45,315 nucleotides of DNA, taken from assembly GCA_040143965.1 (NCBI GenBank), contig JASJQH010000026.1:1-45315 (forward strand), in the 5' to 3' direction. Both the position numbers and the translations under genes were made by a program. Positions 4,286-30,966 of this stretch are shown one piece after another. This stretch comes from Basidiobolus ranarum (Eukaryota). The notes beneath the pieces are model-generated. The model saw only the letters and a list, made by a program, of their open reading frames with translations, made no database searches and was not told the origin of the DNA. Numbering within the stretch: the first letter of the stretch is position 1; every line of letters starts with the position of its first letter.

Positions 4286-7200
4286 TTATTTTGTTTTGAA
4301 GTAAAAGTCAGGATTTCCCCAATAACAGGTGATCATGTTCCCATTGATGGTATTAGGCTCGCAAGTTTCAAAAATTCTGGGCTTCGAGAATAATGTGACT
4401 TTTGGAGGTTGAATAATGGCTTTCTGTTGAATAGCTCCTCGTGTAACTAGTACTTTCAGAACATCTTGTAGTTCACATCGAGACATGACCAGTGAGAATT
4501 TACGGTGAATATTTGCTTCGTACACACCGGGTTTTTGAATGACATATCCTAAAACTGCTTCAGAGCAGGCCCGTAAAACAGTTTCAACGATGTTTCCATT
4601 GATATCATACCACATTCTGGCTGGTGCATATCTGTGAATGGTGATCCGTGACAATGGGTCACGCAACCTAGGAGTTCGTTCTAATGAAGACAAATCTAAC
4701 TCGGGCCCGGGGGTCCCCGTGGATCTCAATGGAGTTTGGCTTCTAGAGTAAGAACAGACTGTACGTTGCGCCGTGTCAATCATCCAGAATGAGAGAAATT
4801 CTTGAGTCACGTATCTAAATGTATTGAATCCAACACGACCAACTAAAGGAGGGCGGGATGATTCAAGTTTGCTCAGGTAAGCTTGAAGTTTTGTGTCATC
4901 CATGGTTGCATCTTTCTCGTTCCTGATGGTATTCGCCAACGACAGTAAAGTGGTTCCAAGGTTGCCGCTACTGTTGATGTAGTCATACACGAGTTGGACA
5001 TTAGCTTTGTCATCATCAGTCGAATATTGGCTCTTTATCTCTTCGATAATGATATTCGCATCGATATCAGGAACATCTTCCTTCGAATTATCAGCAAGCG
5101 ACGGTTTGTATCGCTTGGGCGTTGAACATTCTAAATCTGGAGTATCTTCCAGAGGTCGCTTTGTAGCCAGGCTAACTGTACCGGAGATAACTCTCGTAGG
5201 CTCCGATAATTCAGTAATTTCAGCAATATTTTCGGTTGGAGTGATACAAACAGAAAAATCCAATCTTCGATGATCAATCTTTCGACTCTTGTGATTAGGG
5301 ACAATCTGAGATTCATTTACAGATTCTGGGTACACTGGTGAAAGAGAGATCTTGTTATTTGAGAGCAAATTTAATAGGCAGGCCATAGTTCCACTATTGG
5401 CCAGGGGAGAGAACACCAAAGGGCCCTTAATGTGGAAGTGAAAAGCTGTAGCCTGCGGAAGCATCCGTTCGGGGAATGTTCCAGTTAAAACAGAGAGAAA
5501 CTTATCCGAGACATGAAATCCACGTCCAGGTATTCTTCTGTTAAATCCACCCTTGACTTTTACTATGGTTCCAGCTTCTTTAGCATCTTCCAGAGCTTCC
5601 ACAATCTGGGTATGAGGGAAGATATTTAATATGGAGAACGCATGCGAGGAGTCGTATTGATCTTCCGGAGTCATCAAAATCATTTTAACTAAGGCCTTGA
5701 TAAGCTCTTTTTGAATCTTATTTTCATCAACATCCTCCACTACCATATTGAGATTGTTGCAAAGTTTGGTGCGAAGAATGAAAGGATGAGCATACATGAC
5801 TGTCATCTTCCCACGAAGGGATACCGCAAATTCTACTTGATCTTCGAAATAAATATCTTCGCTATGGGTTGAAGACACAAACGAGGGATCAAAAACAGAC
5901 TCAAGAATTGCAGGGTTTTTAGGGAGAGGATAAGAAGGGATAGGGTCGTGGGTAGGTAGATTTCTTAATGCACTCATAAAGTATTCCAATTGTCCTTTCA
6001 AATCGAAATCTATCATATCTACATCATCCTCATCGACAAATCCACCTGTCTTGAGACCCTCATGATACAAGGCCTCCCAATGAATAACAAGAGAATTGAC
6101 TCTATCTTGGTTTCGAGTGTTTCGAAGCAATACGTTAATCCTGCGTCGACAATTTTCACTTACGCGTTCAGGAAAGACCTGTATAATGGATGCCCAAAGA
6201 AACTTAGACCTACGTGCTCGGTATCTTAGGATGACATACGCATGAAGTAACATCTCATCTTCTTGAGGAGACCAGTATGAGCGGTATCTTCTAGAGATGG
6301 ATTCATACTGCGACTCGAATCTCTCTTCATCTCCAATAACTGGAAGATTCTCCTCATTCTCCATGAGACCAGGGTTTGTAATCGGCTCTTGCTGCTTTCT
6401 CAGTTTTTCTCTTTGAGATTTTCTCCCGATCGAAGAATGTGATGACTCGCCTTGACTATTTTTCCCCTTTCTCTTATTCTTATTAGGAGGCGTACTATCT
6501 GAGCCAAACGAAGCAGAAGCTGCGTTTTTTAACAATCTCTCTCGAATAGTCTCTCTACGCTTCTTTCGGAAAGCGGACTCTCCATCCGGTACCTTGGAGC
6601 TAGCAATCAATCCCTCATGACTAGTATGCTTTTTCGTTGCTTCCAGAGCAGCAGATGCTTGTCTCTCGCGTTTCTTAATCAACTTGCGCTCATGATCATC
6701 TTGAATTCTTTTGAAAAAGAATTTCACCCGTTGAACATGAAGGCTAAGTTTAGCAGCAATTTGACGGCATTTGACTTCATCTTCAAGTGGTGTTAATCCC
6801 TTCCGACGATTGACATAAGACTCCAGCACGGACCTTTGGTGAGTGGTAAACGGATACGACGACTGCCAGTTACGAGGGTTTGTGATGTGAAATAGAGGGT
6901 CGTTTCTTCCGTCCCCTTCTTCTAATTTTTCAGACTTGCATTGTTTAGGAGTCTTGGAGTTTTCTTCGTAACTCTCATCCGCACTTTCACCGCTGTTTTC
7001 ACCTTCATTATCACTTCCGATGTTGGTTCTTTCCGCGACTTTTTGAAGAGCCACATATTGTAATTCACTCCAATATATCGTAACATCCTGGATGGTTTCC
7101 AAAACGTACTCACGAATGACCATTCGGTTGGTCCCAGGAAAAGAATAATCGAACATTCGGACATGTAACGGAAGTTGATAAGCAGAGCTAACAATTTGAA

Positions 7201-10200
7201 AGGACGCTTCAAAATCACTGTCGTTCATATCATCAAGACCCTCATATACAACGTTTCCCAGTTCATCGAAATCTCTAGCAACCGGTTTTAAGATTTCAAG
7301 TGCGACCAAGATATCTAAGAGCTGCTTGAGTTGACGTCTATATTTATAGTTTCCACCAAAAATAGCCGCTCGAATAGAGTGTGGTAGGTCAACCACCCGA
7401 ATTGACAAATCTTTGTTCCCTTTGATGTAATTTGTCAGTTCAGTATTTTGAGTGGTGTGACCAATGATCTTCAAGTAAAGATCCAAAGTAAGGTCAGTGA
7501 AAAGCATGGATGTCTGGAATACTCTTGAAGAATCATCAAGTTCATTTTCTTCAGCTTGACCGTTGATTTTGCTAATTAAAAATTGATGGAGAAGCTTTGC
7601 ACGAACCATCTTGGCATTTATCCAGCCGTAATCCTGAGCTGTTGAAAGCCACCACATATCGCTAGAAGGGTTTGATTTTGCAGGAGTCGTGGGACTAGTA
7701 TCTATACGTGGTTGTGAGGTAGAGGGTGTCTGGACTGAGCTGCCTATCCTCTTTCTCATATCTTCCAGCCTTTCCACTTCTATATTCTCTTCTTCGATCT
7801 TGGGTGGTTTAAATGTACTTCCAACCAGCATGATACGGTCGCGCATCAAAGCCACATACTCTTTGACCTCCGGGCTTTGTGGGGTCAGTGAAGGGTGGAG
7901 AAACAGTATTTTTGTGTTGTATGTTCCATTAAGAAGAGGAAGTCTTACTGTATATTGAGTGAGAAGATTCTCTTCCTCTAACGATGTGGCAGTTCGGGCC
8001 AGAGTTCTCTTGTCTATCGTATGAGGTAAGTGAGCTCCAGTTCCTAGTTGAGCGGCCAAGAGGTCTTGATAGGATTTAATGAGTAAGTAACTTAATTCAA
8101 GAATCTTCTTTTCATCCAGAAGTTGAAGGAGTAGCTTTCTGCGTCTAACGGCTGTGATGGACTTCAAGTGAGACGCACTGTTGGTGCTTGGTGTGGGGAT
8201 GGCTTTTCGATCAGGGGTAACAGGAATTTTATCCTCTGTGATGTCACCCTTAATCTCCACGGGTTCCTCGCTCTCATTTTCGTTGACTGCCGGTCCTTTG
8301 CCTTTACATTTTCTACTGCAGAACCAATTACCTTTGGGTATTGCTTTGAGAGGTGGATTAGAGCAGTATGTATGCTGGCCTTCGTTACAATGATCGCAGA
8401 GGAGTATTTGGCTATCATCATCACCTTTATGGCAAACTTTACAAACAATCTCATCTACATCCATACCATCAGGTTGAGGTGTAGATACGATCTCGGGGGT
8501 AGATTCAATCACGTGTCTGGAAGAGTCGCGACGATTACGTGTGGGCGTGTTTCCGTTCAGAACTCTTCTCATTTCAGATGTGATACCGTCCTCCTCCTCT
8601 AACCTTTTAAAGGATTCAGTGGAGTAATACCGATACCGTCTTTCACGCCCAACAAATTCTGCGACGCGACAGATCCCCACTTGGTCTACATTCGCTGGAG
8701 GCTTTAAGAGTCTAGTTAGAATCTTCTGTAACAGACGGTTATTGATATTGCTTAAAGATTCTTGGATAGCCTATAGAAGAAATAATGATGAGTATTGGAT
8801 TGTTTTCTATTCAGGTATAGATAAATCATAATTACTCCTGCTGTTATTCCGTCGTCACCAGACAATTGAATCAGTCGATAGACCTGATACTCAAAAGGTA
8901 AATCCGCAAGAACACCACGTTGAATGGAGGGGACGACTGGATCTTGTGTTGGTGATTCTGGAACGAAATCTTCACTAATATCCACAAGTCTTTCTCGAAT
9001 TTTAAGTGCTAAGATTATGAAAAGAAAGTTAAATTATTTCTGCTACCATATCAAAAAGGATCTCACTAGCCCACCTTGAGGTTTTGAAGGAATCAACGGA
9101 CTGGTATTGCTCTGCGAATTGGGTACATAGGGTCTTAACAGTCTAAAGCATCTATCATAGCCCTTATCTTTTCTTGGAACATTGATTCTCTCGATATATT
9201 TTTGCTTTACTAATATATCAATAGTACGGTTGAACCATTTTCGTTGTTGCTTAACAGTTGCTGTATCTAAGCCCTAGTTTAAAAATTTAAATTAATTAGT
9301 ATTCCTAAATGAACTCGGAATAGTTGGCACTTACTAAAGCATCCATCAAATCTTGAGCGACCATAACTTTATTCAACGCCTGTCCCAGTATCTCTGTTAG
9401 CTTTTGTCTTACAAGATCACTGTGAAAAGAAACGCCTGTATCAGGAGATGATGGACTATTTTCAGTATTTTCATAATGAAAGCGTATTGAATCCTTTTCT
9501 GCCTCAAGGGTAGAAGCAGGATCACTTCGTTCACAATTTGATGGCATTGTCGCCAAATAAGCGGGATTTAGATGAGCATAACGAATATGAAGACACAGAT
9601 TAGTGTATGTTCCTCGTGTTACGACGGGGCACTTGACTCTATGAGAAAAGAGGACATTAGTATCTAACGGTGATAACAAATATATACAATGAAGAATTAG
9701 ACATACACAAGTTTCATTTCACACAAGACTTTGATAAAATGAAATACAGATCGCGGATCCATTTTCAAATCTTTAGCAATATCCGCCTGTGTTGCACCTA
9801 ATACCCGGCCACGAGCAATACGTCGTAAAACCGAGGATATCATTGAAGAGAATTCCTTGCTTGGCTGTGATACGGAATATTAAATATCGTAAATAACGTT
9901 GTAAACTTGGACTTTTATCGATAGAATGAGAAAATACCCACACCTTGGTGTCCATAGAGGGCTTTTCTTTGTAAATCCGAGCTAGCTATTACTTTCAGTT
10001 TGCTCCCGTATTTTTGTTCCACTTCTTCTAAGCTAGCTACCCCAATTTCTGTCCTGAGGGAGTTTCCGGAATTTTGGTGAGTAATTTTATCGGGTGATTT
10101 CTAAAGGATAAGAGTAAGAGTAAAGGTTAAAAAACGCTTGTTCAATACTAACTATGGGTAAAATATCAACTATATAATGACATACTGAATGTTGAGTTTT

Positions 10201-10531
10201 TTTCCCTCGTGTTTTCCCCTTGTTGTGTATATCTTGTTCAACAATCACAAAAGATACCTCCTCCATTTTACTTAAAATTCCCCATATATAAGCCTTCATT
10301 GATTCGTCAAACACTTGTGGTCCCTCTGGATCTGAACCAAACTTTTTTCTACGTAAATTCGTGTATGTTGCATTATAATATTCTTCAAAGAATTTCCAGA
10401 TGTTCGGTAAAGGGCAGCCTGAAGACAAAAAGTTTGTATGGGAGTTATTGGAAACCTTAAAAGTGGTTTAACTTACCACCATCACCTTCCACGCCGATTT
10501 CTTCCAACACGTATAGCAATAGATCATCCAT
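4286..10531 (-). CDS. TFC3: RNA polymerase III transcription factor TFIIIC large B-block-binding subunit (Tfc3/Sfc3/GTF3C1 family) with an internal PHD finger
   Basis: ATG at 10531 gives MDDLLLYVLEEIGVEGDGGCPL, a typical family N-terminus. A B-block winged-helix segment (VLRRIARGRVLGATQADIAKDLKMDPRSVFHFIKVL) lies at ~9710-9835. Several short introns precede a ~4.5-kb terminal exon (8770-4286) containing EFVGRERRYRYY, HTIDKRTLART, homeodomain-like and Myb/SANT-like segments, and RRIPGRGFHVSDKF. Confidence 0.88.
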
Positions 10532-11129: not shown

Positions 11130-14100
11130 TTAGTCGGCCCACTGATGTGCGATTGACTTGAGAGCATTTTGTGTTCTTGGGTTATCAATAGATCCTAATT
11201 TCCACAAGAATGCGAAGTCACTTTGCGCTGCTAAAGCTGTTTCATTTTGGATACTAGTGACAGCTTGTTTGGAATGCTGATTCTCTTCAAACTTCTTGGC
11301 TGCCTCCTCAGCTTTGTCTACAATAGCTCTAGGCACACCAGCCATATTGGCAACATTCATACCGTAACTCTTTGGACAAGATCCTTCTTGAAGTTTATAA
11401 AGAAAAGTGACTTCTTTCCGCTCCTCATCAACTTGACAACTCATATGCATTAAAGTGATGTTTTTTGTTTTTTCCATTTCCGTCGTCAGCATGCCATAAT
11501 GTGTAGAGAAAAGTCCAAGGCAACCAACATAAGTTGCCAAGTAATGAAGTACAGAGTAGGCAATAGCATATCCATCAAATGTACTAGTACCACGACCCAA
11601 TTCGTCTAAGATGACCATAGATCTTGGCGTAGCTTCACGCAGAATTTTAGAGGTTTCACTAAGCTCTACCATGAAGGTGGATTGTCCAGCAAGAATATTG
11701 TCATTGGCACCAATACGCGTGAAAATTCGATCGAATGTAGTCATACGGCAACGACGTGCAGGGACATAACATCCTAATTGAGCCATGATTATAGCGACAC
11801 AAGTTTGTCTCAACAAGGTAGATTTACCACCCATGTTAGGGCCTGTTAGTAGAATGATGTTGGATTTGGAACCTCCAAGGTAAGTATCGTTTGGTATGAA
11901 GTCGGTAGCTACACCAGGAATAACACATGGATGGCGAAGTTCTTCAAATTCCAAGATGCTTTCGGGGCTATCCACAAACTCTGGCCGTGAGTATGGCTCA
12001 CCTAATGAGATGGAGCTCTTCGCTAGACTGAATAAACAATCTAGCTCCGCAATGACGCTAACTGCCTTATTCCACTGAGGGTAATTGGTGTCGAACTTTT
12101 GATACATTCTGCTTTGGATGTTACTGAGGATATTGTTACGGGTTTCCTGTGCTTCATTCAAAGATTGAACCAAGGATTTCGTCGTGGTATTCCAGTAGCG
12201 ATTCACGGCTTTAGTCTGGGAAAGTTTGATCCAATTGTCAGGAACTTTGATGTTTTTGGGAACTTCGATCTGGTAGAGCTCCTTTCCAAGATCTTTGTAT
12301 TCAACTTTAGGGCAATTTAGTTTTTTCCTACAGTCCTTCAAGTGGAAGGCAAATTGACTTTCGATTTCTTGGAGTTGCTTAACGACTTCATCATAATCAT
12401 CTTCTACTCCAAGATGAGGAATCACATTGCCTTCTTTTTCTGCTACCTCATGATCAAATGCTTCGTTAAAATATTTGATTCTTTCGGTGAGATCAGGATA
12501 GGAATTCAATAAATATATCAATCTCTTGGAGGTGAAATTGGTTGACTTCTGCTTCATTTTGTTCATCACTTCGTTGATTGCTTCAAATGAATGGAGCACG
12601 CTCAGTAGCTCTTTGAGTTTACAAGTACCAGCATGGATACGACTAATGATACGCTCGAGATCAGGGAGAGATGAGAAAATGACTGAAAGTTCATCTTGTA
12701 ATTCGAAATCCGTGTTAATAGTTTCAATGGCGTCTAAACGTTCGTTAATCTGCTCAGCAGAGCGAAGTGGATGGCATAGCCACTTTTTGAAAAGTCTTTT
12801 CCCGAAAGGAGTGGAGCATCTATTCAAGAGTTTAAATACGGTTCCTTCTTCACCGCCATCAAAACTATTTTCGAAAATCTCCAGATTAACTAGAGTTTGT
12901 CCATCCAAGATCAATGATGTAGTTTGATGGATGGGATCGTAGGCATGTATATTTTTGAGGGATAGTAGTTCCTTATCAAGCTTAAGTGAACGAAGATACC
13001 ATGTCAAGCCACCAAGGGCGGATATGGCCAGATGTTTGTCCTGGAATGTCAGAAGTGCGGCAGGCCACTTGCCGGTATCTTGATCTACTGATGATTTATT
13101 TTCCTCGCCAGTTTGATCAAAGTAGCCGCCACGGCGCAATGCGTCCATTGTTGTAACGCTATCCCAAAACTCTGTTTCGGGAGTAAGATAATTCCATACT
13201 GGAGCATTTACGGAGTTCTTAAGCACTTTTAAGGTACGTGGGCTAATCCCACCTTTTTCTAGGATCACCTCCTTCGGTTTGATTTGAAGAACCAACGTTT
13301 CGAATCGAGTTCTTTCGAGATCGTCTTCAAAAGAGCAGATGTAGAATGCTGCGGTAGCAGTATCAACGAAGCAAATACCTAAAGAAGGTAATGAGCTATC
13401 ACCGGTACACTCCTCTTTGATGGCCATACAATACGTAGACATCTCGTTATTTAAAAGTCCGGAATCAACCAGTGTACCAACTGTTAAAATACTAGAGAGT
13501 TCGCGTCGTATAATCTTCTCTTCTTTCTTTTGACTGGTACGCTCACGCATAGTTTTACCAAGGGCCGTTTCCATTTGCTCCACTTTAGCAACCTTATACC
13601 CTTTAGCGAGAAATTGAGAGGCCCAATGGTGAAATGAAGATTCGGGGACTCCAACCATACGCATATTAACTCTGTCGGTCATTTTCAAGTCGAATTCCTG
13701 ATGTCCAATGTCAGCATCTTTTTCGTAGAGTTCGTAGAATTTCCCTTTTTTGAAAAAAACAACAGTATCAAAATGTTTCGATTTGATTTCCCAAAATTGC
13801 TTCTCGAATGGAGTGAAGACATTCCAAGCGGACGATGGTACTTTTAAAGTACGAGGGTCGTAATCAGGATGGCCTACTGGGTTTCCGTTGGCATCTTGAA
13901 CATTGACCAACCAGTGATATCTGGTCTCGTTCTTTTCTTTTTTCTTGTCGCTACGCATAGGACTGGCCTTAGAAGGTGAGTCGAGAAAACTGGCGGCACG
14001 ACGTCCACAGGAAGGCGACATGAACTGTTGGAATTTAGCTTTAGTAGTTCTAGGAGTAGTAGGCGTGCGAGGAATAATGGTAGTGATTTTTTTCGAGTCT

Positions 14101-14612
14101 TCAATGGACTCTGGGCTAGAAACTATATCAGCATCCATTTGTGGATCAGGTTCAGGCTCGGATTCTTGTTCTTCTGGTTTGAAAGTATCTTCGTCGTCAG
14201 AGTTGACAATTCTTCGAAGTTTACGAGATGAGCCTCTTGGAGTCGATACTTTGATAGCCTGAACTTCCTTATCCTCTTCGTCAGATTCGTAGTAGGTTAC
14301 CCTTCTTTTGGTTCGTGACAAGGATGCAAGAGGTACCTCCTCATCTATATCCATATCATTAGCAGTTTTACTGGGTACTTTCCCGACTGGACTTGAGTTT
14401 TGGGTGCTAGGAGAAGAATCCGTATTACTCTTTGAACGAGGTACAATACTTTCGGGTAAGGATTCCTTGATTTCAGCTGAGATCACCTTGTCTTGAGCAG
14501 GCTCACATTCTGAGATAACAGAAGGGATTTTATCGGAGGACTTGGATTCCTTTGCAGGTGTCTTGAAAAAAGAAAACAGTGTTCTCTGAGTTTTGGGTGT
14601 TCGGTTACTCAT
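11130..14612 (-). CDS. MSH6: DNA mismatch repair protein Msh6 (MutS-alpha subunit)
   Basis: Intronless 1160-aa ORF with an N-terminal PIP box (QRTLFSFF), YDPRTL, the mismatch-binding motif FFKKGKFYELYE, Walker A TGPNMGGKST, STFMVELSET, DELGRGTST, and a C-terminal HTH (KSYGMNVA). Confidence 0.97.
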   Translation of the reverse strand: MSNRTPKTQRTLFSFFKTPAKESKSSDKIPSVISECEPAQDKVISAEIKESLPESIVPRSKSNTDSSPSTQNSSPVGKVPSKTANDMDIDEEVPLASLSRTKRRVTYYESDEEDKEVQAIKVSTPRGSSRKLRRIVNSDDEDTFKPEEQESEPEPDPQMDADIVSSPESIEDSKKITTIIPRTPTTPRTTKAKFQQFMSPSCGRRAASFLDSPSKASPMRSDKKKEKNETRYHWLVNVQDANGNPVGHPDYDPRTLKVPSSAWNVFTPFEKQFWEIKSKHFDTVVFFKKGKFYELYEKDADIGHQEFDLKMTDRVNMRMVGVPESSFHHWASQFLAKGYKVAKVEQMETALGKTMRERTSQKKEEKIIRRELSSILTVGTLVDSGLLNNEMSTYCMAIKEECTGDSSLPSLGICFVDTATAAFYICSFEDDLERTRFETLVLQIKPKEVILEKGGISPRTLKVLKNSVNAPVWNYLTPETEFWDSVTTMDALRRGGYFDQTGEENKSSVDQDTGKWPAALLTFQDKHLAISALGGLTWYLRSLKLDKELLSLKNIHAYDPIHQTTSLILDGQTLVNLEIFENSFDGGEEGTVFKLLNRCSTPFGKRLFKKWLCHPLRSAEQINERLDAIETINTDFELQDELSVIFSSLPDLERIISRIHAGTCKLKELLSVLHSFEAINEVMNKMKQKSTNFTSKRLIYLLNSYPDLTERIKYFNEAFDHEVAEKEGNVIPHLGVEDDYDEVVKQLQEIESQFAFHLKDCRKKLNCPKVEYKDLGKELYQIEVPKNIKVPDNWIKLSQTKAVNRYWNTTTKSLVQSLNEAQETRNNILSNIQSRMYQKFDTNYPQWNKAVSVIAELDCLFSLAKSSISLGEPYSRPEFVDSPESILEFEELRHPCVIPGVATDFIPNDTYLGGSKSNIILLTGPNMGGKSTLLRQTCVAIIMAQLGCYVPARRCRMTTFDRIFTRIGANDNILAGQSTFMVELSETSKILREATPRSMVILDELGRGTSTFDGYAIAYSVLHYLATYVGCLGLFSTHYGMLTTEMEKTKNITLMHMSCQVDEERKEVTFLYKLQEGSCPKSYGMNVANMAGVPRAIVDKAEEAAKKFEENQHSKQAVTSIQNETALAAQSDFAFLWKLGSIDNPRTQNALKSIAHQWAD

Positions 14613-15185
14613 TGTGTCAACTAATATGCTGAACCGTGAAGTTGAATGAAGAGTTCCTAAATTGTATGATGACTTTTACCTTATTATCTTTATGTTTTGA
14701 AGACTTGAGAAATGTATTTTTTGTTTTGATTTTAAAATCATGATCAGACACGACTATGTTTATTTAGAGTGGTTATCAACCATTGGCCAGAAATTCGATG
14801 AATTGCGGTAATGAGGATTTAACTACAATTAAATCGTCGACAAATGGTTGTAGATAAATGCACTATCAATGCCGGTCAATATAAATCAGATCAATTAATA
14901 ATCAAACGACTTGTGTTCTCTGTCCCTTGATCAGTCATTTTACGCCCAAGAGTCAAACTACACGGACCTAGTTTATTGAGACGATAGATTGTGAAGTAGA
15001 GGACTCGGACTAGTTTTCCAAATGACAAAATAAAAAGCAGCGATGTATAGATTGCTGAACCAAATGTATCTATGAAGTAGGCAAGGTAGAAAGGCTAATA
15101 CGTTAAGGGGTAAAATACAACATTGAGAAAGGCAACATTAATAATCCGCACCGACGTGAGAACTTGAAGCAGTCTTCGGAACGGG

Positions 15186-17456: not shown

Positions 17457-19443
17457 CTATATGCATAGTTCATCGATTTGCGTTGATGGCAGTGGTCTAA
17501 CTCGTTTCGCGTTTACTGCCGACGTATGAACCATAGTATTTGAGACTAGTTTATGGTTTTCAGTTTGGTGTTTATGATTTAGAAGCCTGCCTTTATCTTG
17601 AGTGGAGATGCGTACAGGGGGTACAACCCAAAATTTTCCCACACCGTTTCCAGCATTCATACGTCGAGATCGAGTAGGAACATTAGATTTTGAAGTAATG
17701 TTACGAAGAGGATTTCTTTCCCTAGATGCGGTCTTAGTCTTGGACTTTTTGAGGATATTTGGAGAGTACTCCTCATCGCTATGGTTTTGGTTCGAGATCT
17801 TCCGTTTAGCTCCAAAGATACTTTTCTCAAGTCTCTTGTTTAGACTACTTTCCGCTTTAGAAAGAAGTTTTCTTTTGTCTTTATTGGAGACCCCAGCAAT
17901 TTGCCGAGGACATGATAGACCGTAAGCGAAAGATTGCTGATTAGGGATGTTTTTTATCCTCTCGATTGGTTCCAGCGAGGTTTTGGAGAAACTCCTTTGA
18001 TTAGACACGCATTGTTTCTCCAATTCTCTTACTACTTCGGTTAGTTGCGATACGGTAGGACATGTGTCTAAATCGGATTCTTGACGAATTTCATCATATC
18101 GACTAAGCGAACAATTAACAATATCCATCGCTAATGAATGTAAATTGAACTTTTGACAAGTGCGCCCCAAAGCCAGTAAATTTTGATGAGTTTTGTAAGA
18201 GAGAATGATTATATCAAGGTTGACACGACCACTTCCAAAGAGAAGTTTACGAATCTGATTGACCCAGTATTTGGTATTGAGTTTAGGTTGAGATCCACTA
18301 TGAACGAACGAATAATTCAACAACACTAAATCCAAAGCTAGACAACATGAAGTGAAAGCAGGTATTCGTGCTTGTGTCAACTCGTTCGTTAGCTGCGCAA
18401 TCAAGGTGCCACAATGCTCAGTTTGAGTAGAGTGAGATGTATCTTGATCATCTTGAATGGACATAAATTTGGCAACAATGGTAGAAGTCCATTGTTGAAT
18501 GCGCATCTGAACTAATGCATCTTTGGCAACTGACCTTCCGACTTTTGTTCTTTGGATCAATGATTTCCATGCAATTGTCAATAATCGAATAACATGATGT
18601 GAGGAAGATATCTTCTCAACATACTCAGTGAACCCCGAACACAAGTACTGTTCGATGGACATGGTTTGATCTAGTTTGTCAATTAACCGATTGACACAAC
18701 CGTGGTTCACAGACATCGTGTAGGCAAAATGAAACTCTTGATGTAATCCCAGTGGGCGTAACTCAGTTAAATAATCCAGTAACTCAATTACCTATAATGA
18801 TGAGGATATCAATAAAGGTGATCCACATTTACAGAAATGTAGACTCTGAGCTCACCTGAAGAGTTAATTTACGTTCACAATAAACTTCCACTAGTATTCG
18901 ATAGAAATTATACGACCTAACATATTGTTTACACTCCTGAACGAGATGTGCCACTAGAACATCTCGTCGGAAGTGACCTGGTATCATTTCATAATATTTT
19001 TCCCTTCTTTTGTGACATTTTTCCTTTCCTAGGTGTTTACCGAGAACTTGTGAAGCAAAGACACCCAAGCTCGGAGGCCCGAAATTGGCCCCGGGTTTCT
19101 CTCTCGTTGATTTGGGCCACAGTTTGACTAACAAATGTCTGTAAGCCTCGACTAAAGACGCTTCATGTTTTATGATGGTCGTTTCAAAAGGTCCTCCAGT
19201 GTTAAGACTATAAGAGTTATAACCTGACCTTTTACTCTTTTTATCATAAGCTGCCATATCACTATATGTTGTACTCGTCTCCCCTGAAATATATGCAGCA
19301 AAAGCACTTGGTGAAGACTTTGCGTGATTAATAATGGCGTTAAGTTTGGAACGATAAGAACGCAACATTTTGTGCATTTTCGATAGTTCCAAGGTGTAGG
19401 TGATGTCAACGTATCTAGGGGATTTCTCCGTGAAGAGTTTCAT
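17457..19443 (-). CDS. Hypothetical protein (~640 aa, two exons); helical N-terminal part and basic low-complexity C-terminus
   Basis: ORFs 18829-19443 and 17457-18716 join in frame via an intron at ~18855-18792 (CAG|GTGAGC ... TTATAG|GTA). No family motif recognised. Confidence 0.7.
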
Positions 19444-19949
19444 CTTTTAGACTTTGGTTGTTCACGAATAAAGACGAGTACTTTTACTAAACTGAGAACT
19501 GTGACAGTTAACAATTAATTCGAAGACTTCGTTAGAGTATAAACCATCATCCCTTTACTCGTATTGATTATGGTGTATTCATTGTCCAATGAAAGTGATT
19601 CTAGTGGATAATTCGATGTTGATCATGAGTATAAGGGTGTCGTATATATGGATCATAAAAGTTTTTTTATTTTCTATCCGCTACGATTGGTTCGATTAGA
19701 AGTAAACAATCTCGATGTTTGGTTTCAAGAAATAAAAAAACATCGAATCCGAATCTGTAGGTATAAATAATAAATATTCAGGCATGAGATATTCAAGAAT
19801 GAAGTGGAAGTGAATGAAAAGTTATATGTATACAAAGGTGTGGGTGAATATATAGGTAGTAGAGGAATTCAGAGTAAACATGGAGTGGGGAATGTATTTT
19901 ACGATAGTTGATCTCTCCAATTGCATGTTGGGAAATAAGTCCAAACTAT

Positions 19950-22000
19950 TTAGTGACGATGAAAGCAGTTGTTGCAGTTATCTTTTTTGAATACATTAGG
20001 TGTGTATTCTTCGCAACCACAATGATCACATGGTCCTATTTCATCCCCTTGATTAATTGAGCTCTCAGTGCGATGGGTACGAGGTTTAGCAATAGCCGGT
20101 CTGCATACGGAAGGTGCTTGTTTGGGGGCATTCATAGCTCTATTCAGGTTGTTGGCCGAGGCCATTCGAGGTATGGATTTTGGTGCAGCCACAGTAGACT
20201 GACTGCGGGGACGAGGAGGTGGGGGTGCTTTTCTACGACTGGGAGCTTCTAAAGATTCTGGAGTTTGCGTATTCATGCTGGCACTTTCATAGTCGACTGA
20301 AGACGAGTAATTGTTGCTATTGTATTGTCTTTTAGGAAGAGGGGGCTGTTGCTGTTGGGGTTCCATAAAGATCTCTTCTACGTAGTTTGAAGGAAACATG
20401 CCAACTCTTTTACCATTATCATCAACAGTTTCCCCAACCCACCAGCCGTCATCAATCTCCTCAATCACAGTGACAATATCCCCTTTGCGAACAGATAACT
20501 CCTCCTTTGTTTCTCCATCAAATCCATATAATACGCGTACTTGTTTTCTACTGGTGATATTGGGTAGTGTTGTTGAACGTCTTAACGGTGGCATGGATTC
20601 GGGAGGAGATGCTCTATTGGTAGCTCTAGCGAAGGTGTTTGATCTTTGCAATGAGCTTGGGTTAGGGGTGTAGTCATTGTAGCCACTGTTGCTCCTTGGC
20701 ATGTCAAAGTATGAGTTATTGTTTCCACATAAGCTTTCAGGAGTTCTCGGGGCTTGATCGTAGCTACTGTAGTTATTTTCATAGGTATCGCAGTCATCAT
20801 GACCGCTGGAGCCTGTGGAATGGTAAGATCTGGCACGATAGGTAGATCCATTGGATTCACCACGAGCACCAAAGCTCTGTTTTCTATGAACCGTTTTAGT
20901 GGAGTAGTATTCCTTGAACGCTCTTTCATCGAAAGCGTCTTTGATTGAAGAAATGATCTCTACCCCTCGTTGGAAGTAAGCAAGTTGGGATTCGTAGAAA
21001 CTATACAAATCTTTCATGCTGAGCTCCTATGAAAATCACACGTTAAGCAATGATCGGCGAAATATTAAGTACTACGTTGAACAAACCTCGTTATTACCAA
21101 TATCGACCATTCTCGAGTGCACGTCGTCCATCGTCTCATGAAACTTCATCTCCGCTGTTCTCATTTGATCCTCTAGCTCTGGTTTATCTTTCTTGGTTTT
21201 TTGTACCGTGTTCAGCTTAGCATTGTAATCCAATCTACGAGATTCAAGTTTCTTACGTGATTGCTGATGGCAAAGCAGATTAGTTATGATATTCACGTCA
21301 ACAGTATAGTAATATGGTGGTACTTGTAATTCTTTCATATCTGTGAGTGTTCTCTCCAACCCATTAACATAGTCTTGTCGGAATCGCATAGCCTAAGGTA
21401 GATAAACTTTCGTTAAGATCCAAACGACTCTGGAGTTATATATGAATCAATTCTTACAAACTCCATCTGGGCACTGGCTAACTGCTCTTGAACTTCACCG
21501 ACTTTTATCATGGCTTTGCCTATTAACACACAAATGTTAATAAAGAATATCTAAAGTATTCAGTATCCTAGAATGGCTCACCATATGGCGATTCTCTAGG
21601 TAGTAACTGGCCATGAGCAACCATAGCATGTCCTAAAGCAAGGACTGGAACGATCTTATTCTTTTCGTCGGCGATTTTCTTCTTTTTTTCTGTGAATTTA
21701 ACTGAATTAAAACCAGGTTTTCACCTGAATAAGAATGGTTAGAAACGTACCAAGGGTATTGAGGTACATCTCGGAAGTAGTATAGAGTCTTTCAAAGTTC
21801 TCTCTTTTAGTATCCGTTTCCTGCTCAAGTTTCTGAAATTCATCACTGCATTCAGTCTTTGTGGCTTTACCGAGTTTTTCACCGGTCCACTGCCAAGTAC
21901 AGAGAAGGGAGTAAGTAATGGTTATATTGGAATAAGTTTCGCACTAATATCCTTCTACCTGTTTGAATTTACCAAGGTTTTTACCGATAGCAGCTGCCAT
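19950..22000 (-). CDS. Endophilin-like N-BAR + SH3 protein (Mug137-like BAR) with a C-terminal Cys/His motif
   Basis: ATG at 22000 gives MAAAIGKNLGKFKQ|WTGEKLGKATKTECSDEFQKLEQE. BAR signature RKKLESRRLDYNAK; SH3 domain VRVLYGFDGETKEELSVRKGDIVTVIEEIDDGWWVGE...GMFPSNYVEEI; Pro-rich motifs. Several short GT-AG introns. Confidence 0.88.
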
Positions 22001-23406: not shown

Positions 23407-24748
23407 TTACTTTTTCAAGAAGCCTGCAGTATGAAGAGCATCGGCGAGATCCTCAATTAAATCATCAGCATCTTCAATACCGACACAGAGGCGGATTAGA
23501 TCTTCTGGTAAAGCTCTCTCTTTTCTAATATGTGCAGGGATGCTAGCGTGAGACATACGACATGGCATACTATAAGAAATAAGGATTAGTTCGCGTGTCT
23601 ACATTGTCAAATAAATACCCACTCCAACACTAACCTAATCAAAGAATTAACGCAACCAAAACTAACGCTGATAGCCCATAACGTAACGGCCTCAACTATA
23701 CGTTCACTCATCTCAACATCTCCGGTTGTAAAACTAAGTACAGCTCCAGCACCTCGAGCCATTGTATGATGAAGATCATATTGGGGGTGGGAACGTAACC
23801 CAGGATACAGCACCTTGAGACCCTTGTTCTCAAGGAACTCTGCTATACGCATGGTATTCGCTTGCTGTCTATCCATACGTAAGCCCAATGTTTTGATTCC
23901 ACGTAAAAGTAGCCAACAATCGAATGGAGCTAAACCGCAACCAGAAGAATTGATAACAAAGAAAACTCTCTTTGCAACTTCTTCATCTTTCACGCCGATG
24001 ATACCTGCCATTAAATCATGATGACCGCTGAGGTATTTTGTGCCCGAGTGATAAGATATATCGGCACCCAGCTCCAAAGGCTTTTGCAAGTAAGGAGACA
24101 TCATGGTGTTGTCAACAACTACCAGAGCATTTGGACAGTAGCGATGAACCATTTGCGAGATAGTAGGAATATCGGCAATTTTGATCAAAGGATTGGTGGG
24201 GGTTTCAAGAAGGACTAGACGAGTTTTCTCGGGGTTGAGAACTGGCTCGATACATGCAGGATTAGTGGTATCAACGTGATGCACTGTAATGTTCGAATGC
24301 TCCTTGAGATAAGTAAGCAATCTGTTACTGCCACCATACAAATCATCCCCTGCAATAATCTCATCGCCAGAATTTACCAAGCGAGTAATGACGTCTAAGG
24401 CTGTCATGCCAGTACTAACTGCGAAAGCTTTCTTTGCGCTCATAATTTTAGCCATGTGTCTTTCTATTTGAATTGGAAATATTTAATATCAACAGATGAT
24501 AATCCTAATAAAGATAAAATATACCAACCTAATTGTGTTCTAGTAGGATTACCAGAACGGGTGTAATCATACTCCCCCATATCATGAATGGAGGGCTGTT
24601 TAAATGTAGCAGTCTGATAAATGGGAACGGAAGCAGCGTGGTATGGATCACGCACACCATTGCCATCTGAATTGTCAATGAATACCAATTCAGTAGCAGG
24701 CTTGTATTTCTTCGGTGCTATGGTATTGCTGGACGATGCGACAGTCAT
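23407..24748 (-). CDS. STR3: Cystathionine beta-lyase (Cys/Met metabolism PLP enzyme)
   Basis: Exons ~24748-24529, 24463-23635 and 23569-23407. Motifs SVPIYQTATFKQ, YDYTRSGNPTR, GDDLYGG, ETPTNP, DNTMMSP, the PLP-lysine motif SGTKYLSGHHD, ISVSFGCVNSLISMPC and LIRLCVGIED. Confidence 0.92.
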
Positions 24749-29556: not shown

Positions 29557-30966
29557 TCAAGCAATCTCTTTAATGGATGTTTCTTGGTCTTCTATATTGG
29601 ATAGCATGGTGGTTGAGTCTGCAGCGTTGAGTTCTTGATTATTATGAATGCGCATATGTTGGTGGAGATTGTCAGAGCGAGAAAAGCCTTTGGCACAGCC
29701 CTCCAAAGGGCAGACGTACGGACGTTCACCTGTATGGGTGCGGACGTGGCGTTTAAGATGTTCATAGCGTTTAAACTTGCGCCCGCACATGTCAAATGAA
29801 CACACATAGTTCCGTTTGTCTTTATTTGGTGGCTGATTTTTTGTTTGATTAGGAGTGGCATACGGCTTGCCCATAGTCCATGTACAACTATTCAACATCA
29901 AATTTCGGCGTCTTTGTTTGTACGCTGGCGAACCCTCAAATAAATTCATCACATTTAGTAGTTGTCCCATTTGTCCCTGTGACGAGACACCATATGTTTT
30001 CATTTCTTCAGATAGAGACCAGTCATTGGGTGCAGTAGTGACTTCTTCCTCGAATAAATTTGATTCCAACATAAAGTGCGACGAGCTCAATAATGGTTTG
30101 CTTGTTATTTCCGCATTGGATTGCTTTGAAATCTCCATATTCGGTAGATATACAGGCTCAGGAGTAGGGAAGAAGTCGCTGTGTTGTGCTTGAGTGGACG
30201 GTGTACTGGGACTTTGTTGTTCGGCCACAAAGTTCAACAGTGAGTCTTGTGAAAGAGGTCCTAAATCTTGGGGATTATTGAGGTGTTCCAGAAAAGAAAA
30301 TGATTTTGTTTCGTCACAGATGTTATCAGAGATCCAGTTGTCAATAAGGGAATCTCCATCCTGAAAGAAAATTCGCGAATCCGTTTGAGCAGAAGCTGAA
30401 ACTGGAGTCTGCGCTTCGTTCATGTCATCCGATGACTCACTTACTGAGGGGTTCATGGTAGGCGGGGGGGAGGATAGTGTACTTATCGTACTTGGATTCT
30501 GAGGAGTCAGTGCGGCAGTTGTAGATTCCATTCCCAGTGCCTCTCGTTTAAGGTCCCGTTCTAAAGCGTCCATAAAGAGGCGGTCATGCGGAACAGAATA
30601 CCAAAAGAACACCTTTTGCTTCTTCTGAGTTCTAATGGAGTTATTTTTATACAACATCTCTAAAAATTCCGATCGTGGTTCTTCCAACGTTGCATCCATA
30701 CCTGGCTTTAAGTTGCGTAAATCACTAAACACCCCTTCTTCGAACTTTTTCATATTCTTCACTGGCCTGTTGAAGACTTGGAAACGAAACACCAAACAGC
30801 GAACAATATCAGTTCCTGTGATATGGAAAAGGTTGTTCCAGAGCACACAAGATATATATTCGCCATTGGGCAACATAAATCTTCGAATCGGTTGTTCAGG
30901 GCTCCAATTAGTAGGAGCGGTTGCTAAGAAATATTTTAGTTGTTCTAAAGCAGCCTGATTTTCCAT
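29557..30966 (-). CDS. STE12: Ste12/SteA transcription factor (STE domain + two C2H2 zinc fingers)
   Basis: Intronless. STE domain [12 protein letters not shown]...ITGTDIVR...[17 protein letters not shown]...[32 protein letters not shown]; conserved [13 protein letters not shown]; two C2H2 fingers joined by an HTGERPY linker. Confidence 0.96.

What the first reader, a model, noticed from the sequence alone, without database searches (positions are those of the whole stretch)
8306..8449. PHD finger embedded in the TFIIIC B-block-binding subunit (Tfc3/GTF3C1)
Seen: an intact C4HC3 finger, EIVCKVCHKGDDDSQILLCDHCNEGQHTYCSNPPLKAIPKGNWFCSRKC, lies in the same uninterrupted 4.5-kb exon as the Tfc3 sequence. 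It sits in a low-complexity linker just after the GRERRYRYY winged-helix segment, so it is not a gene-model fusion artefact. Established: yeast Tfc3, S. pombe Sfc3 and human GTF3C1 are winged-helix-rich, and I do not know them to carry a PHD. Acidic residues before Cys1, LLCD, PKGNW and the lack of an aromatic cage resemble unmodified-H3-tail readers such as KDM5 PHD1 and BAZ PHDs. Inference: this lineage may couple tRNA-gene/B-box recognition or TFIIIC boundary function directly to histone H3K4 state.
Basis: partly seen in the sequence, partly recalled or inferred. Interest (0 to 1): 0.8.

Follow-up and report, generated by a model that had tools for sequence, protein, structure and literature searches.

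The report
Histone-reader finger inside fungal TFIIIC subunit
The protein that anchors the tRNA-gene transcription factor TFIIIC to DNA carries, in Basidiobolus and many chytrid fungi, a built-in PHD zinc finger that closely resembles known readers of the unmodified histone H3 tail, so these fungi may link tRNA-gene recognition directly to chromatin state.

Summary
On the minus strand, window 8306-8449 encodes a C4HC3 PHD finger (Pfam 39.3 bits, cutoff 24). It lies in a 4485-nt exon of an 8-exon gene whose product is identical to the deposited 1921-aa Basidiobolus ranarum protein.

The host protein is the TFIIIC B-block subunit. It has B-block_TFIIIC and eWH_GTF3C1 domains above cutoff, and a homologue profile hits human GTF3C1 at E=4e-60. 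The PHD sits in the flexible linker between the DNA-contacting WH4 and eWH domains.

Its closest solved relatives are BAZ2A/B and KDM5 PHD1, which read unmodified H3K4. It lacks the methyl-lysine tryptophan. The 'acidic wall' column is Ser, preceded by DDD.

The insertion is not specific to Basidiobolus. The same slot holds a PHD with a rare CX3C ending in many chytrids, while named Glomeromycota, Mortierellomycota, Mucorales, Blastocladiomycota and Basidiomycota lack it. The backbone tree groups Basidiobolus with PHD-less Glomeromycota. This points to an old gain followed by repeated loss.

No paper describing it was found. Histone binding and transcript continuity remain untested.

The parts
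4286..10531 (-). Whole CDS of the TFIIIC B-block-binding subunit (tau138/Tfc3/GTF3C1 orthologue), 8 exons, 1921 aa. Exons: 10531-10477, 10418-10186, 10100-9942, 9864-9707, 9638-9335, 9273-9075, 9008-8836, 8770-4286 (stop included).
   Evidence: Splice model has seven GT..AG introns of 58-85 nt and one open frame. It is identical to deposited protein P0004, Basidiobolus ranarum K7432_001226. Profile A1 hits human GTF3C1 8cli_A at E=4.4e-60 and yeast tau138 at about 2e-17.
9707..9864 (-). Exon 4, carrying the B-block_TFIIIC winged-helix domain (PF04182)
   Evidence: Pfam E=8.3e-10, 39 bits, cutoff 22
9075..9273 (-). Exon 6, DUF7599 (PF24538), a further N-terminal TFIIIC domain
   Evidence: Pfam E=1.3e-10, 41.2 bits, cutoff 27
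8624..8650 (-). GRERRYRYY motif, end of the WH4-equivalent winged helix. It aligns with human GTF3C1 ~GRQRTTKY, ending at residue 437.
   Evidence: E38 and R47 are invariant and G41, R42, R44, Y48 at least 90% conserved in 29 sequences. Profile stretch 369-476 aligns to human 334-437; it is weak alone (i-Evalue 2.1) but colinear. Human WH4 is 367-437, with R422/Q423 contacting DNA.
8450..8623 (-). Linker 1 between WH4 and the PHD, low-complexity and predicted disordered
   Evidence: pLDDT below 50 for model residues 73-104. 66.7% identity between the two Basidiobolus species, against 93.8% for the PHD.
8306..8449 (-). PHD finger (protein residues 535-582). Zn ligands: C537, C540, C552, C555, H560, C563, C578, C582. 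The last pair is CX3C.
8156..8305 (-). Linker 2 between the PHD and eWH. It starts with a basic KGKG stretch; the rest is predicted disordered.
   Evidence: pLDDT below 50 for model residues 165-170, 172-181 and 191-202. 66.0% identity between the Basidiobolus species. Consensus 'FCSxxCxxKGK'.
7835..8155 (-). Extended winged helix (eWH_GTF3C1, PF24101), a B-box DNA-contacting domain
   Evidence: Pfam E=2.1e-9, 37.5 bits, cutoff 30. pLDDT 94-98. Fold hits to human tauB-DNA 8cli_A (108 columns, rmsd 2.9) and the tau138 eWH crystal 5aim_B.
5225..6292 (-). DUF6581 (PF20222), the conserved central region of TFIIIC B-block subunits
   Evidence: Pfam E=1.5e-55, 189.2 bits

Best explanation
The window encodes the Basidiobolus ranarum orthologue of the TFIIIC B-block-binding subunit (yeast tau138/Tfc3, human GTF3C1/TFIIIC220). 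A complete, independently folding PHD finger of the BAZ2/KDM5-PHD1 type is inserted in the flexible linker between its WH4 and eWH domains, the two winged helices that clamp the B-box of tRNA genes. This part is shown. The insertion is not a Basidiobolus novelty. The same slot in many chytrid TFIIIC subunits holds a PHD with the same rare CX3C last Cys pair, whereas the named Glomeromycota, Mortierellomycota, Mucorales, Blastocladiomycota and Basidiomycota lack it. The best reading is one ancient gain early in fungal evolution followed by repeated loss, with Basidiobolus keeping the old state (inferred from trees and a shared derived character). Mechanism (inferred, not tested): the PHD hangs on about 50-residue disordered tethers beside the B-box-bound tauB module. 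There it binds the N-terminal tail of histone H3 on a flanking nucleosome, preferring unmethylated K4. This would add a chromatin contact to sequence-specific B-box binding. TFIIIC residence at tRNA genes or extra-TFIIIC sites would then be stabilised, or biased, according to the H3K4 state of the neighbouring nucleosome. The confidence of 0.6 is for the whole statement: about 0.95 for the anatomy and host identity, about 0.7 for ancient gain with losses, and about 0.55-0.6 for reading of the unmodified H3 tail.
For: Identity of host: B-block_TFIIIC 39 bits (cutoff 22) and DUF7599 41.2 bits in upstream exons. eWH_GTF3C1 37.5 bits (cutoff 30) and DUF6581 189 bits. Profile of 17 homologues hits human GTF3C1 at 4.4e-60 in 6 colinear stretches and yeast tau138 at about 2e-17. 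The context model's top fold hits are yeast and human tauB and the tau138 eWH.

Real, translated PHD: the model is identical to the deposited protein. All 8 Zn ligands are invariant in 22 of 22 sequences. AF2 core pLDDT is 88-91 alone and 93-96 in context. The PHD is 93.8% identical (45 of 48) between the two Basidiobolus species, against 66-67% for the flanking linkers.

Position: between human-equivalent residues 437 and about 612, the WH4-eWH linker. Yeast has the same layout, WH4 334-416 and eWH 550-640.

Reader type: the best PDB sequence hits are BAZ2A (62.5 bits), BAZ2B, Lid, KDM5B PHD1, KMT2D and KDM5A PHD1. The best fold hits are BAZ2B/BAZ2A, including complexes with unmodified H3 (5t8r, rmsd 0.9 over 45 columns). 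The equivalents of the BAZ2A H3 backbone-contact residues D1688, L1692, L1693, P1714 and G1716 are D, L, L, P, G in the alignment. The methyl-K4 Trp is absent in 0 of 26 TFIIIC PHDs.

Single old origin: same slot in all carriers. CX3C ending in 23 of 26 TFIIIC PHDs, against at most 3 of the 92 regex-readable PHDs among 112 hit in non-TFIIIC proteins. The nearest PHDs to the Basidiobolus one are chytrid TFIIIC PHDs, and one clade of 19 is not rejected (p-AU 0.68). With PHD and linker columns removed, Basidiobolus groups with PHD-less Glomeromycota (support 100*).
Against: No binding data of any kind exist. The BAZ2A 'acidic wall' column (E1689) is Ser in both Basidiobolus species and acidic in only 14 of 26 TFIIIC PHDs. 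The adjacent D1688-equivalent is Asp, and DDD precedes it. The CX3C spacing alters the second Zn site relative to every characterised reader among the hits, with unknown effect on the peptide groove.

Transcript continuity could not be checked. The PHD label needs 11 changes on the backbone tree, 8 forced by well-supported branches. That is many losses, though some absences may be gene-model errors (P0025, P0023). The PHD tree has only 45 columns and 5 of 112 well-supported branches, and six long-branch TFIIIC PHDs were left out of the clade test.

The Basidiobolus PHD is about as similar to human BAZ2A/B (44-52%) as to chytrid TFIIIC PHDs (27-52%). Sequence identity alone therefore does not prove common origin. 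Only the best 150 of 5464 hits were seen, and most PHD-bearing representatives are unnamed, so the taxonomic range is a lower bound.
Confidence: 0.6

Rival explanations
1. The PHD is functional but its ligand is not the H3 tail. It could bind DNA, or another protein with an H3-like N-terminus, or another TFIIIC/TFIIIB/Pol III component, and so tune B-box clamping by WH4 and eWH.
For: It sits between two DNA-binding domains. A conserved basic 'KGK' stretch follows the finger. The listing includes an abstract stating that the BAZ1A PHD binds DNA. PDB titles show the UHRF1 PHD bound to PAF15. The acidic-wall column is not acidic in B. ranarum, and the CX3C ending is atypical.
Against: All the closest sequence and fold relatives are H3-tail binders, and the H3 backbone-contact positions are retained. 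The loop before beta1 is acidic (DDD), which is unfavourable for DNA contact.
Confidence: 0.2
2. The finger is a structural or vestigial zinc module with no ligand, retained only as a folded spacer in the linker.
For: It has been lost many times without loss of the essential gene: the label needs 11 changes. Several carriers have degenerate versions (P0058, P0072, P0142, P0143, P0021).
Against: It is under strong constraint where present: 8 ligands invariant in 22 of 22 sequences, with P41, L43, P47 and F52 at least 90% conserved. Identity between Basidiobolus species is 93.8% against 66% for the flanks. Surface positions used for H3 contact are conserved, not only the Zn core.
Confidence: 0.1
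3. Basidiobolus acquired the PHD separately, either by independent domain shuffling from a BAZ/KDM5-type gene or by transfer of the segment from a chytrid, rather than inheriting it from an early fungal ancestor.
For: Its closest backbone relatives, Glomeromycota, lack the PHD. Its identity to BAZ2A/B is as high as to chytrid TFIIIC PHDs. The PHD tree is poorly resolved.
Against: The carriers share the same linker slot and the same rare CX3C ending: 23 of 26, against at most 3 of 92 regex-readable PHDs in non-TFIIIC proteins. The nearest PHDs by path are chytrid TFIIIC PHDs, and the constrained single-clade tree scored 11.8 log-likelihood units higher than the free search. No intron flanks the finger to make it a mobile exon.
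Confidence: 0.15
4. The finger is an annotation artefact: it is not part of the mature protein, being spliced out or belonging to another gene.
For: No transcript data could be consulted.
Against: It lies within a single 4485-nt open frame containing TFIIIC domains on both sides. The same architecture appears in independent annotations of more than 10 named species. Conservation at the protein level matches that of the neighbouring domains.
Confidence: 0.03

Closest known systems
TFIIIC B-block-binding subunit: S. cerevisiae tau138/Tfc3, S. pombe Sfc3, human GTF3C1/TFIIIC220 (PDB 8cli, 9gc3, 8ffz, 5aim)
   Same: Same domain order: N-terminal winged helices including B-block_TFIIIC, WH4 with the GR.R wing, eWH, central DUF6581 and the C-terminal tauA-anchoring region. 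The match is colinear along the whole length. A long unmodelled linker separates WH4 and eWH in human (437-612) and yeast (416-550).
   Different: The human chain shows no profile stretch over the PHD positions. Neither TFIIIC structure paper, nor the 2014 paper on the evolution of this subunit, mentions a PHD or zinc finger in it (passages searched). Here the WH4-eWH linker carries a folded 46-residue PHD.
BAZ2A (TIP5) and BAZ2B PHD fingers (PDB 4q6f, 5t8r, 4qf3)
   Same: Best sequence hits (62.5 and 59.4 bits) and best fold hits (TM by target 0.77-0.81, 44-52% identity). There is an acidic loop before beta1. The LL of beta1 and the P.G of the N-terminus cage, which BAZ2A uses for H3 A1-K4 backbone bonds, are conserved. 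There is no K4me Trp.
   Different: The acidic-wall residue E1689 aligns with Ser in B. ranarum. The last Cys pair is CX3C, not CX2C. The finger is not next to a bromodomain or in an ISWI-type remodeller; it sits inside a Pol III general factor.
KDM5A/KDM5B/Lid PHD1 (PDB 7klo, 2mny, 2miq)
   Same: Next-best hits by sequence and fold. The BAZ2A paper describes them as reading unmodified K4 and as having the acidic wall and no Trp.
   Different: KDM5 PHD1 is coupled to a demethylase catalytic domain, which it regulates (recalled, not from a call). No enzyme domain is found here.
TFIIIC-embedded PHDs of chytrids (e.g. Spizellomyces punctatus P0009, Borealophlyctis P0042, Zopfochytrium P0046)
   Same: Same host protein, same linker slot, same CX3C 'FCSxxC' ending, and a conserved PPL..IP.G.WF core.
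   Different: Most chytrid versions have Asp or Glu at the acidic-wall column, where Basidiobolus has Ser. Their TFIIIC backbone is not the closest to that of Basidiobolus.

Membership tests
TFIIIC B-block-binding subunit (tau138/Tfc3/GTF3C1) | B-block_TFIIIC winged-helix domain (PF04182) above Pfam gathering score | tested here: met
   Exon 4: 39 bits, cutoff 22, E=8.3e-10
TFIIIC B-block-binding subunit (tau138/Tfc3/GTF3C1) | Extended winged helix (eWH) that contacts the B-box | tested here: met
   PF24101 37.5 bits, cutoff 30. Fold hits to 8cli_A and 5aim_B.
TFIIIC B-block-binding subunit (tau138/Tfc3/GTF3C1) | Colinear full-length homology to experimentally defined subunits, including the C-terminal tauA-anchoring region | tested here: met
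   Profile A1 against human GTF3C1: E=4.4e-60, six colinear stretches, the last covering profile 1520-1924 and human 1423-2062. Yeast tau138 at about 2e-17. P0004 alone matches human 1984-2083.
TFIIIC B-block-binding subunit (tau138/Tfc3/GTF3C1) | Binds B-box DNA within the six-subunit TFIIIC | not testable with these tools
   Needs biochemistry. Only the conserved GR.R wing motif was seen.
PHD finger (PF00628) | Profile match above gathering score | tested here: met
   39.3 bits, cutoff 24, profile positions 1-46 of 47
PHD finger (PF00628) | Eight Zn ligands in C4HC3 order | tested here: met
   C537, C540, C552, C555, H560, C563, C578, C582, invariant in 22 of 22 sequences
PHD finger (PF00628) | Canonical CX2C spacing of the last ligand pair | tested here: not met
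   CSRKC is CX3C. CX3C occurs in 23 of 26 TFIIIC PHDs, while 86 of 112 control PHDs have CX2C. This is a variant spacing; the fold prediction remains confident.
PHD finger (PF00628) | PHD fold (two-strand sheet, interleaved Zn sites) | tested here: met
   AF2 pLDDT 88-96 in the core. Foldseek probability 1.00 to BAZ2A/B and other PHDs, with 33 hits at E<=0.001.
PHD finger (PF00628) | Binds two Zn ions | not testable with these tools
   Models carry no metal
Unmodified-H3K4 reader PHDs (BAZ2A/B, KDM5 PHD1 type) | Absence of the conserved Trp that forms the methyl-K4 cage | tested here: met
   The residue two before the His ligand is Gly. Trp is found at that position in 0 of 26 TFIIIC PHDs. Criterion from PMC5415848.
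Unmodified-H3K4 reader PHDs (BAZ2A/B, KDM5 PHD1 type) | Backbone-contact positions for H3 A1-K4 (BAZ2A D1688, L1692, L1693, P1714, G1716) | tested here: met
   They align with D, L, L, P, G in the HMMER alignment. Residue list.
Unmodified-H3K4 reader PHDs (BAZ2A/B, KDM5 PHD1 type) | 'Acidic wall' Asp/Glu at the BAZ2A E1689 column (helical-H3 subclass) | tested here: inconclusive
   Ser at the strictly aligned column in both Basidiobolus species, with Asp at the three preceding positions. Acidic in 14 of 26 TFIIIC PHDs. I therefore do not file it in the acidic-wall subclass.
Unmodified-H3K4 reader PHDs (BAZ2A/B, KDM5 PHD1 type) | Measured binding to the H3 N-terminal tail, weakened by K4 methylation | not testable with these tools
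   No H3 sequence was available in-session for a complex prediction. Peptide assays are needed.

The most novel reading that the evidence does not exclude
A histone-tail reader built into the B-box-clamping module was the ancestral state of fungal TFIIIC. Early fungi, and still chytrids and Basidiobolus, would gate TFIIIC residence at tRNA genes and extra-TFIIIC boundary sites by the H3K4 methylation state of the flanking nucleosome. This direct link between a Pol III promoter factor and chromatin would then have been lost at least eight times, including in the lineage leading to all model fungi, which would explain why it has never been seen experimentally.
Probability: 0.3. Interest if true: 0.75.

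Novelty: new variant of a known kind. Interest (0 to 1): 0.55.

Why it matters
TFIIIC has long been linked to chromatin. The cryo-EM paper's introduction cites insulator and boundary activity at extra-TFIIIC sites, reported histone acetyltransferase activity, and links to cohesin and condensin. Yet no subunit of the yeast or human complex is known to carry a dedicated histone-reader domain (my knowledge, and no mention in the passages I searched).

A PHD of the unmodified-H3 type, wired between the two winged helices that close on the B-box, would be a natural experiment. It gives a defined, deletable module for asking whether nucleosome state feeds directly into Pol III promoter recognition or TFIIIC boundary function.

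It also adds a clear case of an ancestral feature kept by early-diverging fungi and lost in model species. The CX3C PHD variant is a testable structural oddity in its own right.

Tried and rejected
1. Plus-strand reading of the given coordinates gives no finger. The feature is on the minus strand.

2. The first Pfam scan of exon 2 used the wrong frame (error) and was corrected.

P0047, 49, 50, 52, 53, 55, 56, 59, 61, 62, 71, 72, 88, 99, 132 and 143 therefore remain unnamed.

5. PHD-H3 complex prediction could not be set up. No genome is held for the window, no H3 tail motif is encoded in the window, and reference proteins are limited to prokaryotes and phages.

6. Earlier scan notes: three look-ups gave nothing relevant.

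7. Whole-gene transfer from a chytrid is rejected, because the backbone groups with Glomeromycota.

8. Gene-model fusion is rejected, because there is one exon with TFIIIC domains on both sides.

9. H3K4me3 reading is rejected, because there is no cage Trp.

10. Literature searches that found no description of a PHD in TFIIIC:
- 'TFIIIC'+'PHD finger': 31 papers, 15 listed
- 'GTF3C1'+'PHD': 24 papers, 12 listed
- 'TFIIIC'+'chytrid': 3 papers
- 'Tfc3'+'PHD': 8 papers
- 'TFIIIC'+'H3K4me0': 5 papers
- 'PHD finger', 'TFIIIC220', 'Sfc3', 'B-block binding', any two: 4 papers
In PMC11811891 and PMC11724288, 'PhD' refers to a graduate programme. In PMC5575660, the 'Tfc3' and 'TFIIIC' passages I read concern a table of acetyltransferases and a reference-list entry, not a PHD in TFIIIC.

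Full report
**1. The observation**

The stated coordinates read on the plus strand give nothing. On the minus strand, 8306-8449 translates to IVCKVCHKGDDDSQILLCDHCNEGQHTYCSNPPLKAIPKGNWFCSRKC. The finger lies in a stop-free frame, 4286..8770(-), of 1494 aa.

Pfam scores a PHD at 39.3 bits (cutoff 24, E=6.8e-10, profile 1-46 of 47) at residues 110-153 of that frame. The finger is real and not a chance Cys pattern.

**2. The gene**

Reading upstream on the minus strand, I built an 8-exon model with seven GT..AG introns of 58-85 nt and consistent phases, giving 1921 aa. It is letter-for-letter the deposited Basidiobolus ranarum protein K7432_001226.

- Exon 4 carries B-block_TFIIIC (39 bits, cutoff 22) and exon 6 carries DUF7599 (41.2 bits, cutoff 27).
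- The large exon carries eWH_GTF3C1 (37.5 bits, cutoff 30) and DUF6581 (189 bits).
- A profile of 17 homologues hits human GTF3C1 (8cli) at E=4.4e-60 in six colinear stretches, and yeast tau138 at about 2e-17.
- A 335-residue AlphaFold model of the region has yeast tauB (9gc3), human tauB-DNA (8cli; 108 columns, rmsd 2.9) and the tau138 eWH crystal (5aim) among its best fold matches.

The host is therefore the TFIIIC B-block subunit. The neighbours are ordinary fungal genes: an MSH6-like MutS, an ADH, a Ste12-like factor and others.

**3. Where the finger sits**

In an alignment of 27 homologues, the PHD always lies between the conserved ...AEFVGRERRYRYY motif and the ...SITAVRRRK..LLE..KILE motif.

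The profile alignment puts the first motif on human residues up to 437 and the second at about 615-640. The first stretch is weak alone (i-Evalue 2.1) but colinear with the rest.

The human cryo-EM paper defines WH4 as 367-437 and eWH as 612-714. Both contact B-box DNA, WH4 is part of the rigid tauB core, and eWH becomes ordered on DNA binding (passages). Yeast has WH4 at 334-416 and eWH at 550-640 (passages). The PHD is thus inserted in the WH4-eWH linker of the DNA-clamping module.

In the context model the PHD (pLDDT 93-96) and eWH (94-98) are confident. They are joined by segments with pLDDT below 50, and pTM is only 0.41. This describes a folded bead on flexible tethers.

**4. What kind of PHD**

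phmmer against PDB sequences ranks BAZ2A (62.5 bits, 3.5e-16), BAZ2B, Lid, KDM5B PHD1, KMT2D and KDM5A PHD1 first.

The PHD-only model (pLDDT 81.2; core 88-91) matches BAZ2B and BAZ2A best by Foldseek. The matches include BAZ2A complexes with unmodified H3 (5t8r: rmsd 0.9 over 45 columns, 51% identity). They are followed by Lid, ATXR5, KDM5B PHD1, UHRF1, DPF, ORC1b, BHC80 and AIRE.

The BAZ2A structural paper (PMC5415848, passages) gives these criteria:
- H3 A1-K4 makes backbone bonds to D1688, L1692, L1693, P1714 and G1716.
- An 'acidic wall' E1689 (with D1688) supports binding.
- The acidic wall is largely mutually exclusive with the Trp that reads methyl-K4.

In the HMMER alignment the five backbone-contact positions are D, L, L, P, G here. 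The Trp position is Gly. The wall column is Ser, preceded by three Asp.

Across 26 TFIIIC-embedded PHDs:
- the wall column is acidic in 14;
- the D1688 column is acidic in 18;
- the Trp is present in 0;
- P.G is present in 17.

The finger therefore works most probably like an unmodified-H3 reader. I do not file it in the acidic-wall subclass.

**5. Constraint**

All eight Zn ligands are invariant in 22 of 22 aligned sequences, and P41, L43, P47 and F52 are at least 90% conserved.

Between B. ranarum and B. meristosporus the PHD is 45 of 48 identical (93.8%). That is similar to WH4 (93.5%) and eWH (97.2%). The two flanking linkers are 66.7% and 66.0% identical.

**6. Distribution**

An exhaustive phmmer of the 600 residues around the finger found 5464 proteins at E<=0.001. 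The best 150 were returned.

Of the 98 that are at least 1400 aa, 25 do.

| Group | Named species (taxonomy) |
|---|---|
| With PHD | B. ranarum, B. meristosporus, Spizellomyces punctatus, Geranomyces variabilis, G. michiganensis, Fimicolochytrium jonesii, Borealophlyctis nickersoniae, Zopfochytrium polystomum, Nowakowskiella sp. |
| With divergent PHD | Gaertneriomyces semiglobifer, Blyttiomyces helicus, Entophlyctis helioformis |
| With partial PHD in the deposited model | Powellomyces hirtus, Thoreauomyces humboldtii |
| Without PHD | All Glomeromycota seen (Ambispora, Diversispora, Cetraspora, Funneliformis, Rhizophagus, Glomus, Geosiphon); about 25 Mortierellomycota; Helicostylum; Allomyces, Blastocladiella, Paraphysoderma; Hyaloraphidium; Quaeritorhiza, Clydaea, Irineochytrium; the basidiomycetes Vararia, Marasmius, Auricularia |

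Human GTF3C1 shows no profile stretch over the PHD positions.

**7. Origin**

The TFIIIC PHDs share a rare ending. The last Cys pair is CX3C ('FCSxxC') in 23 of 26. Among 112 PHDs in the 48 non-TFIIIC proteins most similar to the query, 86 are CX2C, 3 CX3C (2 look like regex artefacts), 3 CX4C and 20 unreadable by the regex.

In a 115-row, 45-column PHD tree, the nearest neighbours of the Basidiobolus finger are the Spizellomyces and Nowakowskiella TFIIIC fingers (path 0.38 and 0.45, against 0.72 or more for others). Holding 19 TFIIIC PHDs as one clade is not rejected (p-AU 0.68). I left out six long-branch rows (P0143, P0142, P0058, P0021, P0072, P0059), and the tree is poorly resolved.

A FastTree of 98 backbones, with PHD and linker columns removed (1531 columns), puts Basidiobolus as sister to Glomeromycota (100*). 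The PHD label needs 11 changes, 8 of them forced by well-supported branches. That tree also flags long-branch joins, and it places Entophlyctis next to Blastocladiomycota, which is probably an artefact.

Together these results favour one early gain and many losses over whole-gene transfer. A separate acquisition by Basidiobolus is not excluded.

**8. Mechanism and status**

*Shown:* a conserved, foldable, BAZ2/KDM5-PHD1-like finger tethered inside the tauB DNA-binding module.

*Inferred:* it contacts the H3 tail of a nucleosome flanking a B-box-bound TFIIIC and prefers unmethylated K4, so that it modulates TFIIIC residence or boundary function.

*Untested:* Zn content, peptide binding, any in-vivo role, and transcript continuity.

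**9. Novelty**

Six literature searches and passage checks in four papers found no description of a PHD in any TFIIIC subunit. The papers checked include two TFIIIC structure papers and a 2014 paper devoted to the evolution of this subunit, which has 0 occurrences of 'zinc' or 'PHD'. Supplements were not available.

Automatic annotations do register the domain. Precomputed Pfam lists include it, and one UniRef name reads 'Zinc finger PHD-type domain-containing protein'.

I rate it a new variant of a known kind. It is of moderate-to-good interest to Pol III and chromatin specialists, but it is not unique to this lineage.

Noticed in passing
window 8306-8320 (-); also P0009, P0018, P0022, P0026, P0042, P0046 and others: The TFIIIC-embedded PHDs end in CX3C ('FCSxxC') instead of the canonical CX2C. 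This occurs in 23 of 26, against at most 3 of the 92 regex-readable PHDs among 112 hit in non-TFIIIC proteins. It is a family-specific change at the second Zn site with unknown structural consequence.
   Followed up: partly
window 8294-8305 (-), residues 583-586 (KGKG): A basic 'KGK' stretch directly after the last Cys appears in the majority consensus of PHD-bearing TFIIIC subunits (consensus 'FCSxxCxxKGK'). It could be a DNA or acidic-patch contact.
   Followed up: no
P0025 (Thoreauomyces humboldtii) and P0023 (Powellomyces hirtus), linker region: Both deposited proteins show the start of the PHD (for example '...IVCRICNIDD...LLCDSCDDARRVWPV') and then diverge. This probably reflects gene-model errors rather than true loss, so absences in the survey may be overcounted.
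   Followed up: no
P0026 (Nowakowskiella sp.), P0020 (Geranomyces variabilis), several Mortierella proteins (P0064, P0177-P0179, P0181, P0187): Misleading automatic names and likely fused models. The Nowakowskiella TFIIIC is named 'Annexin A2' and lists an annexin domain. A Geranomyces copy is named 'Methyl-CpG-binding domain-containing protein 9'. Six Mortierellaceae TFIIIC entries list a synaptobrevin domain (PF00957).
   Followed up: no
window 6134-6283 (-), residues 830-879 of the large exon: There is a weak Myb-like DNA-binding match (20.2 bits, below the 24.4 cutoff) at the start of DUF6581. This is presumably why UniRef names the protein 'Myb-like domain-containing protein'.
   Followed up: no
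whole window: All 11 stop-free frames of 200 aa or more lie on the minus strand. They include an MSH6-like MutS (11133-14675), an ADH (378-1466), an SH3 protein (19953-21026), a Cys/Met PLP enzyme (23610-24482), a Ste12-like STE+C2H2 factor (29560-30978) and a PH-domain protein (36429-37871). This is a striking one-strand run of genes over 45 kb.
   Followed up: no
window 17460-18791, 18832-19446, 40020-40682 (-): Three long open frames (444, 205 and 221 aa) have no Pfam match at E<=1e-5.
   Followed up: no
P0071 (2349 aa, unnamed, PHD hit at 1019-1066): Its length is close to the 2346-aa Batrachochytrium dendrobatidis B-block subunit mentioned in PMC3945056. If it is a relative, the amphibian-pathogen lineage would also carry the TFIIIC PHD. 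This rests on a length coincidence only and was not tested.
   Followed up: no
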